Shown in pieces: positions 40,184 to 60,000 of a stretch of DNA of 64,000 nt. Every line of letters starts with the position of its first letter. Position 1 is the stretch's first letter. Source of the DNA: the human T2T-CHM13v2.0 reference genome, Homo sapiens. The notes under the pieces were generated by a model. The model searched no databases, was not told the DNA's origin, and worked only from the letters and a program-made list of their open reading frames with translations. A program made the position numbers and the translations under genes. The stretch lies in the NCBI RefSeq assembly GCF_009914755.1, contig NC_060932.1; one strand, given 5' to 3'.

Positions 40184-43100
40184 ATGACGGGATCAAATTC
40201 ACACATAACAATACTAACCTTAAATGTAAATGGGCTAAATTCTCCAATTAAAAGCCACAGACTGGCAAATTGGGTAAAGAGTCAAGACCCATCGGTGTGC
40301 TGTATTCAGGAAACCCATCTCACGTGCAGAGACACACATAGGCTCAAAATAAAGGCATGGAGGAAGATCTACCAAGTAAATGGAAAACAAAAAAAGGCAG
40401 GGGTTGCAATCCTAGTCTCAGGTAAAACAGACTTTAAACCAACAAAGATCAAAAGAGACAAAGAAGGCCATTACATAATGGTAAAGGGATCAATTCAAAA
40501 AGAAGAACTAACTATCCTAAATATATATGCACCCAATACAGGAGCACCCAGATTCATAAAGCAAGTCCTTAGTGACCTACAAAGAGACTTACACTCCCAC
40601 ACTATAATAATGCGAGACTTTAACACCCCACTGTCAACATTAGACAGATCAACGAGACAGAAAGTTAATGAGGATATCCAGGAATTGAACTCAGCTCTAC
40701 ACCAAGCAGACCTAATAGACATCTACAGAACTCTCCACCCCAAATCAACAGAATATACATTCTTTTCAGCACTACACCACACCTATTCCAAAATTGACCA
40801 CATAGTTGGAAATAAAGCACTCCTCAGCAAATGTAAAAGAACACAAATTATAACAAACTGTCTCTCAGACCATAGTGCAATCAAACTGGAACTCAGGATT
40901 AAGAAACTCACTCAAAACTGCTCAACTACATGGAAACTGAATAACCTGCTCCTGAATGACTACTGGGTACATAATGAAATGAAGGCAGAAATAAAGATGT
41001 TCTTTGAAACCAACGAGAACAAAGACACAACATACCAGAATCTCTGGGACACATTCAAAGCAGTGTGTAGAGGGAAATTTATAGCACTAAATGCCCACAA
41101 GAGAAAGTAGGAAAGATCTAAAATTGACACCCTAACATCACAATTAAAAGAACTAGAGAAGCAAGAGCAAACACGTTCAAAAGCTAGCAGAAGGCAAGAA
41201 ATAACTAAAATCAGAGCAGAACTGAAGGAAATAGAGAAACAAAAAACTGTTCAAAAAATCAATGAATCCAGGAGCTGGTTTTTTGAAAAGATCAACAAAA
41301 TTGATAGACCGCTAGCAAGACTAATAAAGAAGAAAAGAGAGAAGAATCAAATAGACGCAATAAAAAATGATAAAGGGGATATCACCACCAATCCCACAGA
41401 AATACAAACTACCATCAGAGAATACTATAAACACCTCTACACAAATAAACTAGAAAATCTAGAAGAAATGGATAAATTCCTCGACACATACACTCTCCCA
41501 AGACTAAACCAGGAGGAAGTTGAATCTCTGAATAGACCAATAACAGGCTCTGAAATTGAGGCAATAATTAATAGCTTACCAACCAAAAAAAGTCCAGGAC
41601 CAGATGGATTCACAGCAAAATTCTACCAGAGATACAATGAGAAGATGGTACCATTCCTTCTGAAACTATTCCAATCTATAGAAAAAGAGGGAATCCTCCC
41701 TAACTCATTTTATGTGGCCAGGATCATCCTGATACCAAAGCCTGGCAGAGACACAACAAAAAAAGAGAATTTTAGACCAATATCCTTGATGAACATTGAT
41801 GCAAAAATCCTCAATAAAATACTGACAAACCAAATCCAGCAACACATCAAAAAGCTTATCCACCATGATCAAGTGGGCTTCATCCCTGGGATGCAAGGCT
41901 GGTTCAACATACACAAATCAATAAACGTAATCCAGCATATAAACAGAACCAAAGACAAAAACCACATGATTATCTCAATAGATGCAGAAAACGCCTTTCA
42001 CAAAATTCAATAACGCTTCATGCTAAAAACTCTCAATAAATTAGGTATTGATGGGACGTATCTCAAAATAGTAAGAGCTATCTATGACAAACCCACAGCC
42101 AATATCATACTGAATGGGCAAAAACTGGAAGCATTGAAACTTGTGCCTTTGAAAACTGGCACAAGACAGGGATGCCCTCTCTCACTACTCCTATTCAACA
42201 TGGTGCTGGAAGTTCAGGCCAGGGCAATCAGGCAGGAGAAGGAAATAAAGGGTATTCAATTAGGAAAAGAGGAAGTCAAATTGTCCCTGTTTGCAGATGA
42301 CATGATTGTATATTTAGAAAACCCCATTGTCTCAGCCCAAAATCTCCTTAAGCTGATAAGCAACTTCAGCAAAGTCTCAGGATACAAAATCAATGTACAA
42401 AAATCAAAAGCATTCTTATACACCAAAAACAGACAAACAGAGAGCCAAATCATGAGTGAACTCCCATTCACAATTGCTTCAAAGAGAATAAAATACCTAG
42501 GAATCCAACTTACAAGGGATGTGAAGGACCTCTTCAAGGAGAACTACAAACCACTGCTCAGTGAAATAAAAGAGGATACAAACAAATGGAAGAACATTCC
42601 ATGCTCATGGGTAGGAAGAATCAATAACATGAAAATGGCCATACTGCCCAAGGTAATTTATAGTTTCAGTGCCATCCCCATCAAGCTACCAATGACTTTC
42701 TTCACAGAATTGGAAAAAACTACTTTAAAGTTCATATGGAACCAAAAAGAAGCCTGCATTGCCAAGTCAATCCTAAGCCAAAAGAACAAAGCTAGAGGCA
42801 TCATGCTACCTGACTTCAAACTATACTACAAGGCTACAGTAACCAAAACAGCATGGTACTGGTACCAAAACAGAGATATAGACCAAAGGAACATAACAGA
42901 GCCCCAGAAATAATGCCGCATATCTACAACCGTCTGATCTTTGAAAAACCTGAGAAAAACAAGCAATGGGGAAAGGATTCCCTATTTAATAAATGGTGCT
43001 GGGAAAACTGGCTAGCCATATGTAGAAAGCTGAAACTGGATCCCTTCCTTACACCTTATACAAAAATTAACTCAAGATGGATTAAAGACTTAAATGTTAG

Positions 43101-57000: not shown

Positions 57001-60000
57001 GAAATTTATAGCACTAAATGCCCACAACAGAAAGCAGGAAAGATCCAAAATTGACACCCTAACATCAAAATTAAAAGAATTAGAAAAGCAAGAGCAAACA
57101 CATTCAAAAGCTAGCAGAAGGCAAGAAATAACTAAAATCAGAGGAGAACTGAAGGAAATAGAGACACAAAAAACCCTTCAAAAAATTAATGAATCCAGGA
57201 GATTGTTTTTTGAAAAGATCAACAAAATCGATAGACCACTAGCAAGACTAATAAAGAAGAAAAGAGAGAAGAATCAAATAGGCGCAATAAAAATGATAAA
57301 GGGGATATCACCACCGATCCCACAGAAATACAAACTACCATCAGAGAATACTATAAACACCTCTACACAAATAAACTAGAAAATCTGGAAGAAATGGATA
57401 AATTCCTCAACAAACACACTCTCCCAAGACTAAACCAAGAAGAAGTTGACTCTCTGAATAGACCAATAACAGGCTCTGAAAATTGTGGCAATAATCAATA
57501 GCTTACCAAGCAAAAAAAAGTCCAGGACCAGACGGATTCACTGCCGAATTTTACCAGAGGTACAAGGAGGAGCTGTTACCAGTCCTTCTGAAACTATTCC
57601 AATCAATAGAAAAAGAGGGAATCCTCCCTAACTCATTTTATGAGGCCAGCATCATACTGATACCAAAGCCTGGCAGAGACACCAACAAAAAAGAGAATTT
57701 TAGACCAATATCCTTGATGAACATCGATGCAAAAATCCTCAATAAAATACTGGCAAACCGAATCCAGCAGCACATCAAAAAGCTTATCCACCACAATCAA
57801 GTGGGCTTCATCCCTGGGATGCAAGGCTGTTTCAACATATGCAAATCAATAAATGTAATCCAGCATATAAACAGAACCAAAGACAAAAACCACATGATTA
57901 TCTCAATAGATGCAGAAAACGCCTTTGACAAAATTCAATAACGCTTCATGCTAAAAACTCTCAATTAATTAGGTATTGTTGGGACGTATCTCAAAATTAT
58001 AAGAGCTATCTATGACAAACCCACAGCCAATATCATACTGAATGGGCAAAAATTGGAAGCATTCCCTTTGAAAACTGGCACAAGACAGGGATGCCCTCTC
58101 TCACTACTCCTATTCAACATGGTGCTGGAAGTTCTGGCCAGGGCAATCAGGCAGGAGAAGGAAATAAAGGGTATTCAATTAGGAAAAGAGGAAGTCAAAT
58201 TGTCCCTGTTTGCAGATGACATGATTGTATATTTAGAAAACCCCATCGTCTCAGCCCAAAATCTCCTTAAGCTGATAAGCAACTTCAGCAAAGTCTCAAG
58301 ATACAAAATCAATGTACAAAAATCAAAAGCATTCTTATACACCAAAAACAGACAGAGAGCCAAATCATGAGTGAACTCCCATTCACAATTGCTTCAAAGA
58401 GAATAAAATACCTAGGAATCCAACTTACAAGGGATGTGAAGGACCTCTTCAAGGAGAACTACAAACCACTGCTCTATGAAATAAAAGAGGATACAAAGAA
58501 ATGGAAGAACATTCCATGCTCATGGGTAGGAAGAATCCATATCATGAAAATGGACATACTGCACAAGGTAATTTATAGATTCAATGCCATCCCCATCAAG
58601 CTACCAATGACTTTCTTCACAGAATTGGAAAAAACTACTTTCAAGTTCATATGGAACCAAAAAAGAGCCCACATTGCCAAGTCAATCCTAAGCCAAAAGA
58701 ACAAAGCCAGAGGCATCACACTACCTGACTTCAAACTATACTACAAGGCTACAGTAAACAAAACAGCATGGTACTGGTACAAAACAGATATAAGATCAAC
58801 GAAACAGAACAGAGCCCTTAGAAATAATGCCACATATCTACAACCATCTGACTTTGACAAACCTGAGAAAAACAAGCAATGGGGAAAGGATTCCCTATTT
58901 AATAAATGGTGCTGGGAAAACTGGCTAGCCATATGTAGAAAGCTGAAACTGGATCCCTTCCTTACACCTTATACAAAAATGAATTCAAGATGGATTAAAG
59001 ACTTACATGTTAGACCTAAAACCATAAAAACCCTAGAAGAAAACCTAGGCAATACCATTCAGGACATAGGCATGGGCAAGGACTTCATGTCTAAAACATC
59101 AAAAGCAATGGCAACAAAAGCCAAAATTGACAATGGGATCTAATTAAACTAAAGAGCTTCTGCACAGCAAAAGAAACTACCATCAGAGTGAACAGGCAAC
59201 CTACAGAATGGGAGAAAATTTTTGCAACCTACTCATCTGACAAAGGGCTAATATCCAGAATCTACAATGAACTCAAATCAATTTACAAGAAAAAAACAAA
59301 CAACCCCATCAAAAAGTGGGCAAAGGATATGAACACACACTTCTCAAAAGAAGACATTTATGCAGCCAAAAGACACATGAAAAAATGCTCATCATCACTG
59401 GCCATCAGAGAAATTCAAATCAAAACCACAATGAGATACCATCTCACACCAGTTAGAATGGAAATCATTAAAAAGTCAGGAAACAACAGGTCCTGTAGAG
59501 GATGTGGAGAAATAGGAACACTTTTCCACTGTTGGTGGGACTGTAAACTAGTTCAACCATTGTGGAAGTCAGTGTGGCGATTCCTCAGGGAACTAGAAGT
59601 AGAAATACCATTTGACCCAGCCATCCCATTACTGAGTATATACCCAAAGGATTATAAATCATGTTGCTATAAAGACACATGCACACGTATGTTTATTGCG
59701 GCACTATTCACAATAGCAAAGACTTGGAACCAACCCAAATGTCCAACAATGATAGACTGGATTAAGAAAATGTGGCACATATACACCATGGAATACTATG
59801 CAGCCATAAAAAATGATGAGTTCATGTCCTTTGTAGGGACATGGATGAAGCTGGAAACCATCATTCTCAGCAAACTATTGCAAGGACAAAAAACCAAACA
59901 CCGTATGTTCTCACTCATAGGTGGGAATTAAACAATGAGAACACATGGACACAGGAAGGGGAACATCACACTCTGGGGACTGTTATGGGGTCGGGGCATG

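What the first reader, a model, noticed from the sequence alone, without database searches (positions are those of the whole stretch)
41990..58350. Two neighbouring L1s share an identical ORF2-killing stop and a cluster of private substitutions: probable interlocus gene conversion
Seen: both elements read gcagaaaacgccttt(c/g)acaaaattcaaTAAcgc, with the stop at 42011-42013 and 57939-57941. Within about 450 bp they also share [12 protein letters not shown], tatttagaaaac and [12 protein letters not shown]. Further shared states are ORF1 RIQRNKQ, IQKIQ and TLQTRRE, ORF2 KNKARG and TLFH, and 3'UTR actgttatgg..tcggg. From memory the consensus has EKAF..KIQQ, LSPLLFNIVLEV, KSQAFLYTNNRQ, IQEIQ, TLQARRE and TLLH. 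Elsewhere the two differ at subfamily-type sites (gaggcaataatt vs gtggcaataatc; gatatccagg vs gatacccagg; ccaactgagg vs ccatctgaag), have different flanks, and the second has its own TSD. Established: a stop upstream of the RT catalytic motif cannot be inherited from a cis-active master. Inference: independent insertions were later patchily homogenised by non-allelic gene conversion across ~15.9 kb.
Basis: partly seen in the sequence, partly recalled or inferred. Interest (0 to 1): 0.8.

Follow-up and report, generated by a model that had tools for sequence, protein, structure and literature searches.

The report
Old sequence swap between neighbouring L1s
Two dead L1 retrotransposons of different subfamilies, 16 kb apart in an XKR4 intron, share a ~0.44 kb patch of otherwise unique mutations including a stop codon, best explained by an old copy-and-paste repair event (gene conversion), which is a known kind of event.

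Summary

They are independent insertions from different subfamilies:
- B has its own exact 15-bp target-site duplication.
- The flanks do not align.
- A and B take opposite states at 28 of 49 subfamily-diagnostic sites spread from 38174 to 44058.
- They sit in different well-supported clades in the 5' part and in left ORF2.

Only in 41992-42427 are they sisters (95/98 support). There they show 10 differences against 25.2 expected (P = 5e-4) and six states seen in 0 of 13 type-matched copies.

Over the whole element A-B share 13 pair-exclusive states against 1.50 expected (P = 7.6e-9). Eight of these lie outside the core patch (P = 1e-4).

The combined haplotype is found nowhere else in the assembly. 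Single states do recur, and the stop string itself occurs in five unlinked L1s.

Best reading: one clear non-allelic gene conversion and probably further small ones, all old. The direction is unresolved, weakly B to A. This is a known phenomenon and a clean instance of it.

The parts
38080..44230 (+). L1 copy A: full-length, older or side-branch subfamily ('At'). No clear target-site duplication. ORF2 is broken by stops at 41108 and 42011 and by a frame change near 42814-42910.
   Evidence: Ends read. Open segments. Pfam ORF1, endonuclease and RT domains. Clade membership.
54017..60162 (+). L1 copy B: near full-length, lacking the first few bases of the 5'UTR. Its subfamily ('Bt') is closer to the main younger lineage. 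Its frames are much broken.
   Evidence: Clade membership. Polarity.
54002..54016 (+). Left copy of B's 15-bp target-site duplication, AAATAAACACATCTG.
   Evidence: Exact match found.
60163..60177 (+). Right copy of B's 15-bp target-site duplication.
   Evidence: Exact match found.
41992..42427 (+). Core exchanged patch in A. States 41992C, 42011T, 42202G, 42206C, 42407A and 42427A are in 0 of 13 type-matched copies. 42314T and 42186T are in 2 of 13.
57920..58346 (+). Core exchanged patch in B, the counterpart of A 41992-42427.
   Evidence: The offset is 15,928 before A's 9-bp insertion and 15,919 after it.
42011..42013 (+). Shared in-frame TAA in A, inside the RT domain.
57939..57941 (+). Shared in-frame TAA in B.
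42135..42143 (+). 9-bp insertion private to A inside the patch, so it arose after the exchange.
   Evidence: 0 of 13 panel copies and not in B.
39521..39881 (+). ORF1-end zone in A with four pair-exclusive shared states (39521C, 39530A, 39698A, 39881A). These are interleaved with many private differences, so this is not one tract. The B counterpart is about 55455-55810.
43614..44078 (+). ORF2-end and 3'UTR zone in A. Pair-exclusive states: 43614C, and 43965T and 44078C (both CpG). 44071A is shared with one other copy. At 43936 B carries A's subfamily state. The zone is interrupted by discordant site 44058.

Best explanation
A and B are two separate L1 insertions from different L1PA-group subfamilies. 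They lie in the same orientation 15.9 kb apart. After both had resided there long enough to collect private mutations, a DNA break in one copy was repaired using the other as template. This was non-allelic gene conversion without crossover. It copied about 0.44 kb (A 41992-42427; the outer limits are the nearest discordant diagnostic sites, 41569 and 42883). With it went the donor's private mutations, including the TAA.

Both copies have since gained about 1.2% further changes in the patch: 5 substitutions and 1 indel each. A significant excess of other pair-exclusive states outside the patch suggests further short exchanges.

Shown here: independent origin, different subfamilies, a localised sister relationship, and uniqueness of the haplotype. 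Inferred: the repair mechanism, the direction (weakly B to A) and the timing (roughly the later half of the copies' residence).
For: **Independent origin**
- B has an exact 15-bp target-site duplication.
- Only the L1 bodies align between the two regions.

**Different subfamilies**
- In the 5' 2.3 kb, A-B identity is 89.7%, lower than A against any of the 15 full-length panel copies (90.5-93.4%).
- At 35 non-CpG discordant sites, 8 panel copies follow A (24-32 'a'), 4 follow B (31-33 'b') and 3 are intermediate.
- At 28 of 49 diagnostic sites A is 'a' and B is 'b', from 38174 to 44058, and never the reverse.
- The trees put A and B in different clades in 38110-39498 (100/99) and 40350-41926 (97/96).

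**Localised kinship**
- In 41960-42450 A and B are sisters at 95/98, with stem 0.016 and tips 0.0086 and 0.013.
- In 41992-42427 there are 10 differences against 25.2 expected (P = 5e-4). The flanks show 29 against 27.6 and 21 against 21.5.
- Six states there are in 0 of 13 type-matched copies.

**Excess of pair-exclusive states**
- A-B has 13. The other 29 cross-type pairs have mean 1.21 and maximum 3.
- The expectation scaled by singletons is 1.50, giving P = 7.6e-9 overall, 1e-7 for the core and 1e-4 outside it.
- In a Sawyer-type permutation with penalty 1, A-B is top of 91 pairs (148 against 100.8). It was reached by 0 of 2000 pairwise and 0 of 300 global permutations.

**Uniqueness**
- The 30-mer is exact only in A and B.
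- The five other carriers of the stop string have 0 of 6 other motifs.
- The C24 and C4 copies lack the middle states.
- About 6,700 L1 copies retain the adjacent stretch.

**Neutral character of the shared changes**
- They are K>N, Q>stop, I>M, two synonymous, Q>K and N>K. This is what decay in a resident dead copy would give.
Against: - No orthologue from another primate was available, so the pre-conversion state is inferred and not seen.
- Distance-based support is confined to 436 bp. The ORF1-end zone (24 observed, 30.3 expected) and the 3' zone (40 observed, 47.5 expected) are not individually significant.
- The permutation test is not globally significant with penalty 2 (56 of 300) or with no mismatches allowed (280 of 300). 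Its null also ignores rate differences along the element.
- Direction markers conflict. 42253 and 42397 favour B to A, while 42229 and 43936 favour A to B.
- Several 'private' states recur elsewhere: the stop string in 5 copies, 42407A in about 28, and 42427A in at least 71. Two unlinked copies carry both right-end states.
- The panel is small, 12 full-length copies, and was chosen by similarity to A.
Confidence: 0.8

Rival explanations
1. Both copies received the patch from a third L1, either as donor of two conversions or as a source whose transcript was spliced in by template switching at insertion. That third copy is now lost, diverged or absent from this assembly.
For: The direction markers inside the patch conflict. 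A third-party donor would explain why neither copy looks like a clean donor. Two unlinked copies carry the two right-end states 42407A and 42427A.
Against: No third carrier of the combined haplotype exists in the assembly. This reading needs two events where one is enough. The two recipients would have to be neighbours by coincidence.
Confidence: 0.07
2. A and B descend from one defective source lineage, or one from the other, copied in trans. The shared states would then have been inherited at insertion.
For: Both are full-length, in the same orientation and near each other. Pair-exclusive states are scattered from ORF1 to the 3'UTR. Trans-mobilisation of defective L1s is known at low rate (recalled, no paper seen here).
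Against: A and B take opposite states at 28 of 49 diagnostic sites on both sides of the patch. They fall in different clades with 100/99 and 97/96 support. B was not among the 33 candidates scored as nearest to A over the full length, and the best unlinked copy scored 9288 bits against 8933 for B. No other members of such a lineage exist.
Confidence: 0.04
3. The sharing is coincidence: parallel mutation at hypermutable or polymorphic sites.
For: Single states do recur. The stop string is in 5 unlinked copies. 42427A is in at least 71 copies and 42407A in about 28. 4 of the 13 pair-exclusive sites are CpG.
Against: 13 observed against 1.50 expected, P = 7.6e-9. There are 5 in one 436-bp stretch, P = 1e-7, or 1.4e-6 after correction for 14 windows. 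No other cross-type pair exceeds 3.
Confidence: 0.01
4. An assembly or polishing artefact transferred bases between the two copies.
For: The two copies are long, similar repeats 16 kb apart, where read mis-assignment is conceivable.
Against: Overall the copies differ by 7%. Inside the patch they still differ at 10 substitutions and 2 indels that are interleaved with the shared states. The shared states are absent from every other copy, so mis-mapped reads from elsewhere could not have created them.
Confidence: 0.02

Closest known systems
Non-allelic gene conversion between neighbouring Alu elements (Aleshin and Zhi 2010, as described in passages of PMC6598467 read; PMC8230782 seen only as listing and abstract start)
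   Same: Interspersed repeats that inserted independently later exchange short stretches. The rate is reported to rise with proximity and identity. The result is a conflict between true history and sequence tree, as.
   Different: Here the partners are 6-kb L1s of different subfamilies, 15.9 kb apart. That is beyond the <10 kb range quoted for elevated Alu rates. The evidence is one pair, not a genome-wide statistic.
Repair of a break in a LINE by gene conversion from other endogenous LINEs (Tremblay et al. 2000, seen only as cited in passages of PMC1920257), and the 377-bp intrachromosomal conversion inferred at an L1 locus in that paper (passage read)
   Same: L1 sequence is used as a homologous template for repair. 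The tract is a few hundred bases long. Donor and recipient are on the same chromosome.
   Different: Those cases were cell-culture events or recent human-lineage events. This one is old, with about 1.2% later divergence per copy in the patch. It carries a set of the donor's private mutations, which makes it traceable.
Mosaic L1 lineages made by recombination between subfamilies (recalled from the mouse L1 literature; no paper seen here)
   Same: A mosaic of two subfamily backgrounds along one element.
   Different: Those mosaics were active and left many descendants. This patch is confined to two dead resident copies and carries a stop codon.

Membership tests
Non-allelic (interlocus) gene conversion tract | The two partners are separate paralogous loci with independent origin | tested here: met
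   B has its own 15-bp target-site duplication. The flanks do not align. The subfamily clades differ.
Non-allelic (interlocus) gene conversion tract | Tree conflict along the sequence: sisters inside the tract, not sisters in the flanks | tested here: met
   In the patch A and B are sisters at 95/98. In the 5' part and left ORF2 they are in different clades at 100/99 and 97/96. The right part is unresolved.
Non-allelic (interlocus) gene conversion tract | Divergence is reduced inside the tract relative to the tree-additive expectation and normal in the flanks | tested here: met
   10 observed against 25.2 expected (P = 5e-4). Flank ratios are 1.05 and 0.98.
Non-allelic (interlocus) gene conversion tract | Clustered derived states exclusive to the pair | tested here: met
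   13 against 1.50 expected, with 5 of them in 436 bp. Six states are in 0 of 13 panel copies.
Non-allelic (interlocus) gene conversion tract | The pre-conversion state is seen in an orthologue or an unconverted allele | not testable with these tools
   No primate genomes or other human haplotypes are held.
Non-allelic (interlocus) gene conversion tract | Donor and recipient can be told apart | tested here: inconclusive
   42253 and 42397 favour B to A. 42229 and 43936 favour A to B.
Defective L1 sub-lineage spread in trans | The same variant set occurs in several unlinked copies | tested here: not met
   no third carrier of the set.
Defective L1 sub-lineage spread in trans | Kinship is uniform along the whole element | tested here: not met
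   28 of 49 diagnostic sites are discordant. The clades differ.
Segmental or tandem duplication | Flanking sequence is duplicated together with the element | tested here: not met
   Only the L1 bodies align. B has its own target-site duplication.
LINE-1 (L1PA group) full-length element | ORF1 domains, endonuclease and reverse-transcriptase domains in order, an A-rich tail, and thousands of genomic relatives | tested here: met
   Pfam Tnp_22_trimer, Transposase_22, Tnp_22_dsRBD, Exo_endo_phos and RVT_1. 5257 and 32605 first-look candidates. Tails read. The named subfamily (L1PA3, L1PA4 and so on) was not tested, because no repeat library is held.

The most novel reading that the evidence does not exclude
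The pair has exchanged sequence repeatedly and perhaps in both directions, with at least three separate short patches: the ORF1 end, the RT region, and the ORF2 end with the 3'UTR. That would be low-level concerted evolution between two dead interspersed repeats of different subfamilies 16 kb apart, spreading inactivating mutations from one to the other. If this is common, it would bias L1 ages and subfamily calls. [quoted passage not shown]
Probability: 0.35. Interest if true: 0.45.

Novelty: new member of a known kind. Interest (0 to 1): 0.3.

Why it matters
It is a clean, datable example of ectopic gene conversion between L1s. The partners are from different subfamilies and the donor's private mutations act as tags, so the tract, its limits and its age can be read directly. 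Such events blur divergence-based ages and subfamily assignment of old repeats. They also show that neighbouring repeats in an intron have interacted by homologous repair without rearranging the gene. It does not reveal a new mechanism.

Tried and rejected
1. **A four-member sub-lineage of A, B, L019 and L043.** These share 17 of 33 'rare' states against the first panel. With a type-matched panel those states proved to be ordinary subfamily states.
2. **One long tract, 41928-43971.** The penalty-1 permutation run suggested it. The additive test rejects it, because 42428-42882 has 21 differences against 21.5 expected.
3. **The ORF1-end zone as a single tract.** Rejected: 18 private differences lie between 39551 and 39691, interleaved with the shared states.
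4. **L010-L014 as third carriers.** L011, L013 and L014 are much older L1 lineages (76-88% identity). None has 41992C, 42011T, 42407A or 42427A.
5. **The C24 copy.** It shares only 42407A and 42427A and differs at 42-43 of 687 sites.
6. **The C4 copy.** It first seemed to share five states. The alignment showed it is 5'-truncated at about 42096, so the left matches were noise in unrelated flank.
7. **B's 4-bp deletion as a lineage marker.** Rejected: the deleted form has 670 genome-wide matches.
8. **The all-pairs null for exclusive states.** It was confounded by one shared 15-17-bp insertion (B-L060) and by an extra sub-subfamily (L058-L059). I therefore restricted it to cross-type pairs.
9. 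**My first assumption about polarity.** I took B's subfamily to be the older one. One search reversed this.
10. **A's target-site duplication.** No exact match of 8 bp or more was found.
11. Loci for the full-length search could not be cut out.
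Full report
**What is there**

The window holds two L1 elements on the + strand, inside an intron of XKR4 according to the hub's annotation.
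- Copy A runs from about 38080 to 44230 and copy B from 54017 to about 60162.
- BLAST aligns only the L1 bodies: 38089-44222 with 54016-60136, at 93.03% identity over 6168 columns with 349 mismatches and 39 gap openings. The flanks do not align.
- Pfam finds the three L1 ORF1 domains, the endonuclease domain and the reverse-transcriptase domain in A.
- B is bounded by an exact 15-bp target-site duplication at 54002-54016 and 60163-60177. For A no duplication of 8 bp or more was found.

- The 16-base string with the stop occurs exactly twice in the window, with none expected.
- The TAA is in the ORF2 frame in both copies, 15,928 bp apart.
- It splits the RVT_1 match between profile positions 83 and 88 of 205.

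**The two copies are different insertions from different subfamilies**

- In the 5' 2.3 kb, A is 89.7% identical to B but 90.5-93.4% identical to each of 15 unlinked full-length copies.
- Of 97 sites where A and B differ and both states are common in the panel, 35 are not CpG-related. At these, eight copies follow A (24-32 of 35), four follow B (31-33 of 35) and three are intermediate.
- I fetched the 3' halves of 12 of these copies. This gave 49 sites that separate the A-type from the B-type group. At 28 of them A has the A-type state and B the B-type state, from 38174 to 44058. At 15 both have the A-type state, at 4 both have the B-type state, at 2 B has a third state, and at none is the pattern reversed.
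- Maximum-likelihood trees place A and B in different clades for 38110-39498 (support 100/99) and for 40350-41926 (97/96).
- A larger panel of mostly younger copies carries B's state at all six discordant 3' sites. A's type is therefore the older or a side branch.
- Which named L1PA subfamilies these are was not tested, because no repeat library is held.

**Over the full length, B is not A's nearest relative**

- In a full-length search B was not among the 33 candidates scored out of 32,605. The best unlinked copy scored 9288 bits against 8933 for B.
- In an 801-base search around the stop, B ranked 24th of the 40 scored out of 5257 candidates.

**One patch tells a different story**

- For 41960-42450 the tree joins A and B with 95/98 support, on a stem of 0.016 with tips of 0.0086 and 0.013. 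Nothing else in that tree is resolved.
- A tree-additive expectation for the A-B distance gives 25.2 differences in 41992-42427, where 10 are seen (P = 5e-4). The flanks show 29 against 27.6 and 21 against 21.5.
- In the patch, 41992C, 42011T, 42202G, 42206C, 42407A and 42427A occur in 0 of 13 type-matched copies. 42314T and 42186T occur in 2 of 13, and 42015G in 5 of 13.
- The changes are K>N, Q>stop, I>M, two synonymous, Q>K and N>K. That is the mix expected for decay in a dead resident copy, not for an active lineage.
- Since the exchange each copy has gained 5 substitutions and one indel in the patch: a 9-bp insertion in A at 42135-42143 and a 4-bp deletion in B.

**The sharing is not chance**

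- I counted states carried by exactly two sequences. A-B has 13, of which 9 are not at CpG. The other 29 A-type by B-type pairs have a mean of 1.21 and a maximum of 3.
- A and B have ordinary numbers of singletons, 111 and 109, against 82-132 in the panel. The expected number of coincidences is therefore 1.50.
- The probability of 13 or more is 7.6e-9. For 5 in the core it is 1e-7, or 1.4e-6 after correction for 14 windows. For the 8 outside the core it is 1e-4.
- The eight outside are 39521, 39530, 39698, 39881, 40942, 43614, 43965 and 44078.
- They are not individually convincing as tracts. The ORF1-end states are interleaved with 18 private differences, and the distance there and in the 3' zone is only 16-21% below expectation.
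- A and B share no exclusive indel.
- In a Sawyer-type permutation test with mismatch penalty 1, A-B was the best of 91 pairs: 148 against 100.8, fragment 41928-43971, reached by 0 of 2000 pairwise and 0 of 300 global permutations. With penalty 2 it picked 42146-42559 but was reached by 56 of 300 global permutations. With no mismatches allowed it was not globally significant, at 280 of 300. Permuting site order ignores the higher variability of the 5'UTR, so these values are rough.

**The haplotype is confined to this pair**

- The 19-base stop string has 7 exact matches in the assembly: the 2 here and 5 on other chromosomes. Those five have none of the six other motif strings.
- The 30-mer spanning 42186T, 42202G and 42206C is exact only in A and B. 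Five other loci come within one mismatch. Three of these are much older L1 lineages, and none has 41992C, 42011T, 42407A or 42427A.
- The 35-mer spanning 42407A and 42427A has one further exact match, on C24, and 73 matches at one mismatch. By my count of the listing, 47 of these have 42427A alone, 25 have 42407A alone and 1 (on C4) has both.
- The C24 copy lacks all the other patch states and differs from A and B at 43 and 42 of 687 sites, where A and B differ at 17.
- The C4 copy is 5'-truncated at about 42096 and lacks 42186T, 42202G, 42206C and 42314T.
- For scale, 6030 copies match the undeleted neighbouring 36-mer and 670 match the deleted form, both within one mismatch.

**Mechanism**

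The simplest account is non-allelic gene conversion. A break in one resident copy was repaired from the other without crossover. The repair carried across about 0.44 kb and the donor's private mutations.

- The outer limits are the nearest discordant diagnostic sites, 41569 and 42883. The flanks behave normally beyond 41991 and 42428.
- Direction is not settled. A carries younger-lineage states at 42253 and 42397 that 5 of 6 and 6 of 6 copies of its own type lack, which favours B as donor. B carries A's type at 42229, a site that is polymorphic in the younger panel (13 against 7), and at 43936. These favour the reverse, or a separate exchange.
- The event is old. Tips make up about 40% of the depth in the patch tree.
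- In years this is inference from recalled substitution rates, not a result. It probably predates the human-chimpanzee split.

**Rivals**

- A shared defective source lineage is contradicted by the diagnostic sites and trees and by the lack of other members.
- A third-party donor cannot be excluded, but it needs two events and an unseen copy.
- Chance is excluded.
- An assembly artefact does not fit, because shared states and private differences are interleaved.

**What is known**

- Conversion between neighbouring Alus is documented, with rates said to be elevated for copies within 10 kb. I read passages of PMC6598467. PMC8230782 I saw only in the listing.
- For L1, passages of PMC1920257 cite repair of a LINE break from endogenous LINEs. 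They also describe a 377-bp intrachromosomal conversion at one L1 locus.
- One passage of PMC13192797 lists gene conversion among the processes that erase fine L1 history.
- I did not search for this locus by name or coordinates, so I do not claim that it is undescribed. Searches concerned the phenomenon only.
- The low rate of trans-mobilisation, the L1PA subfamily ages and the mouse mosaic lineages are recalled. I saw no paper for them.

**Verdict**

This is a clear instance of a known process and of modest interest.

Noticed in passing
B at about 58352 (A coordinates 42433-42436); genome-wide: The 4-bp deletion that frameshifts ORF2 in B is very common. The deleted 32-mer has 670 matches at one mismatch or fewer, against 6030 for the undeleted 36-mer, so about 10% of L1 copies keeping this stretch have it. 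It occurs on A, T and C backgrounds at 42427. It is either a slippage hotspot (CAGA-CAAA-CAGA) or one or more large defective lineages.
   Followed up: partly
G000 C12:85294987, C21:16269672, C23:66058678, C23:114534704, C24:13046216 (L003-L007): Five unlinked L1s carry the identical 19-base string with the same in-frame TAA but none of the other A/B states. The neighbouring G (42015) is a common variant, in 5 of 13 and 5 of 28 panel copies, so recurrent C>T on that background may suffice. Whether the five are related to each other was not examined.
   Followed up: partly
window 54827-54843 (B) and L060 (C10:86756715-86759075): B and one unlinked B-type copy share a 15-17-bp insertion in the 5'UTR that the other 15 aligned copies lack. 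It is probably a marker of B's own source sub-lineage.
   Followed up: no
window A coordinates 38237-38250 (absent in B) and L045 (C8:54161800-54164300): B and an A-type copy 1.7 Mb away share a 14-column gap in the 5'UTR. This may be a recurrent deletion or another exchange.
   Followed up: no
window 38850-38976 (A, query positions about 770-896): Many genomic L1s align to A only from query position 896 onward, with a separate weak match ending at 770. A therefore keeps a 5'UTR segment of about 126 bp that those copies lack or have replaced. This fits a mid-age L1PA element. The link to a known 5'UTR deletion in younger subfamilies is recalled, not tested.
   Followed up: no
window 41108-41110 and about 42814-42910 (A): Apart from the shared TAA, A's ORF2 stays in one frame from 40169 to 42910 with only one other stop, at 41108. 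It then changes frame. B is far more broken, with eight open segments of 133-290 codons.
   Followed up: no
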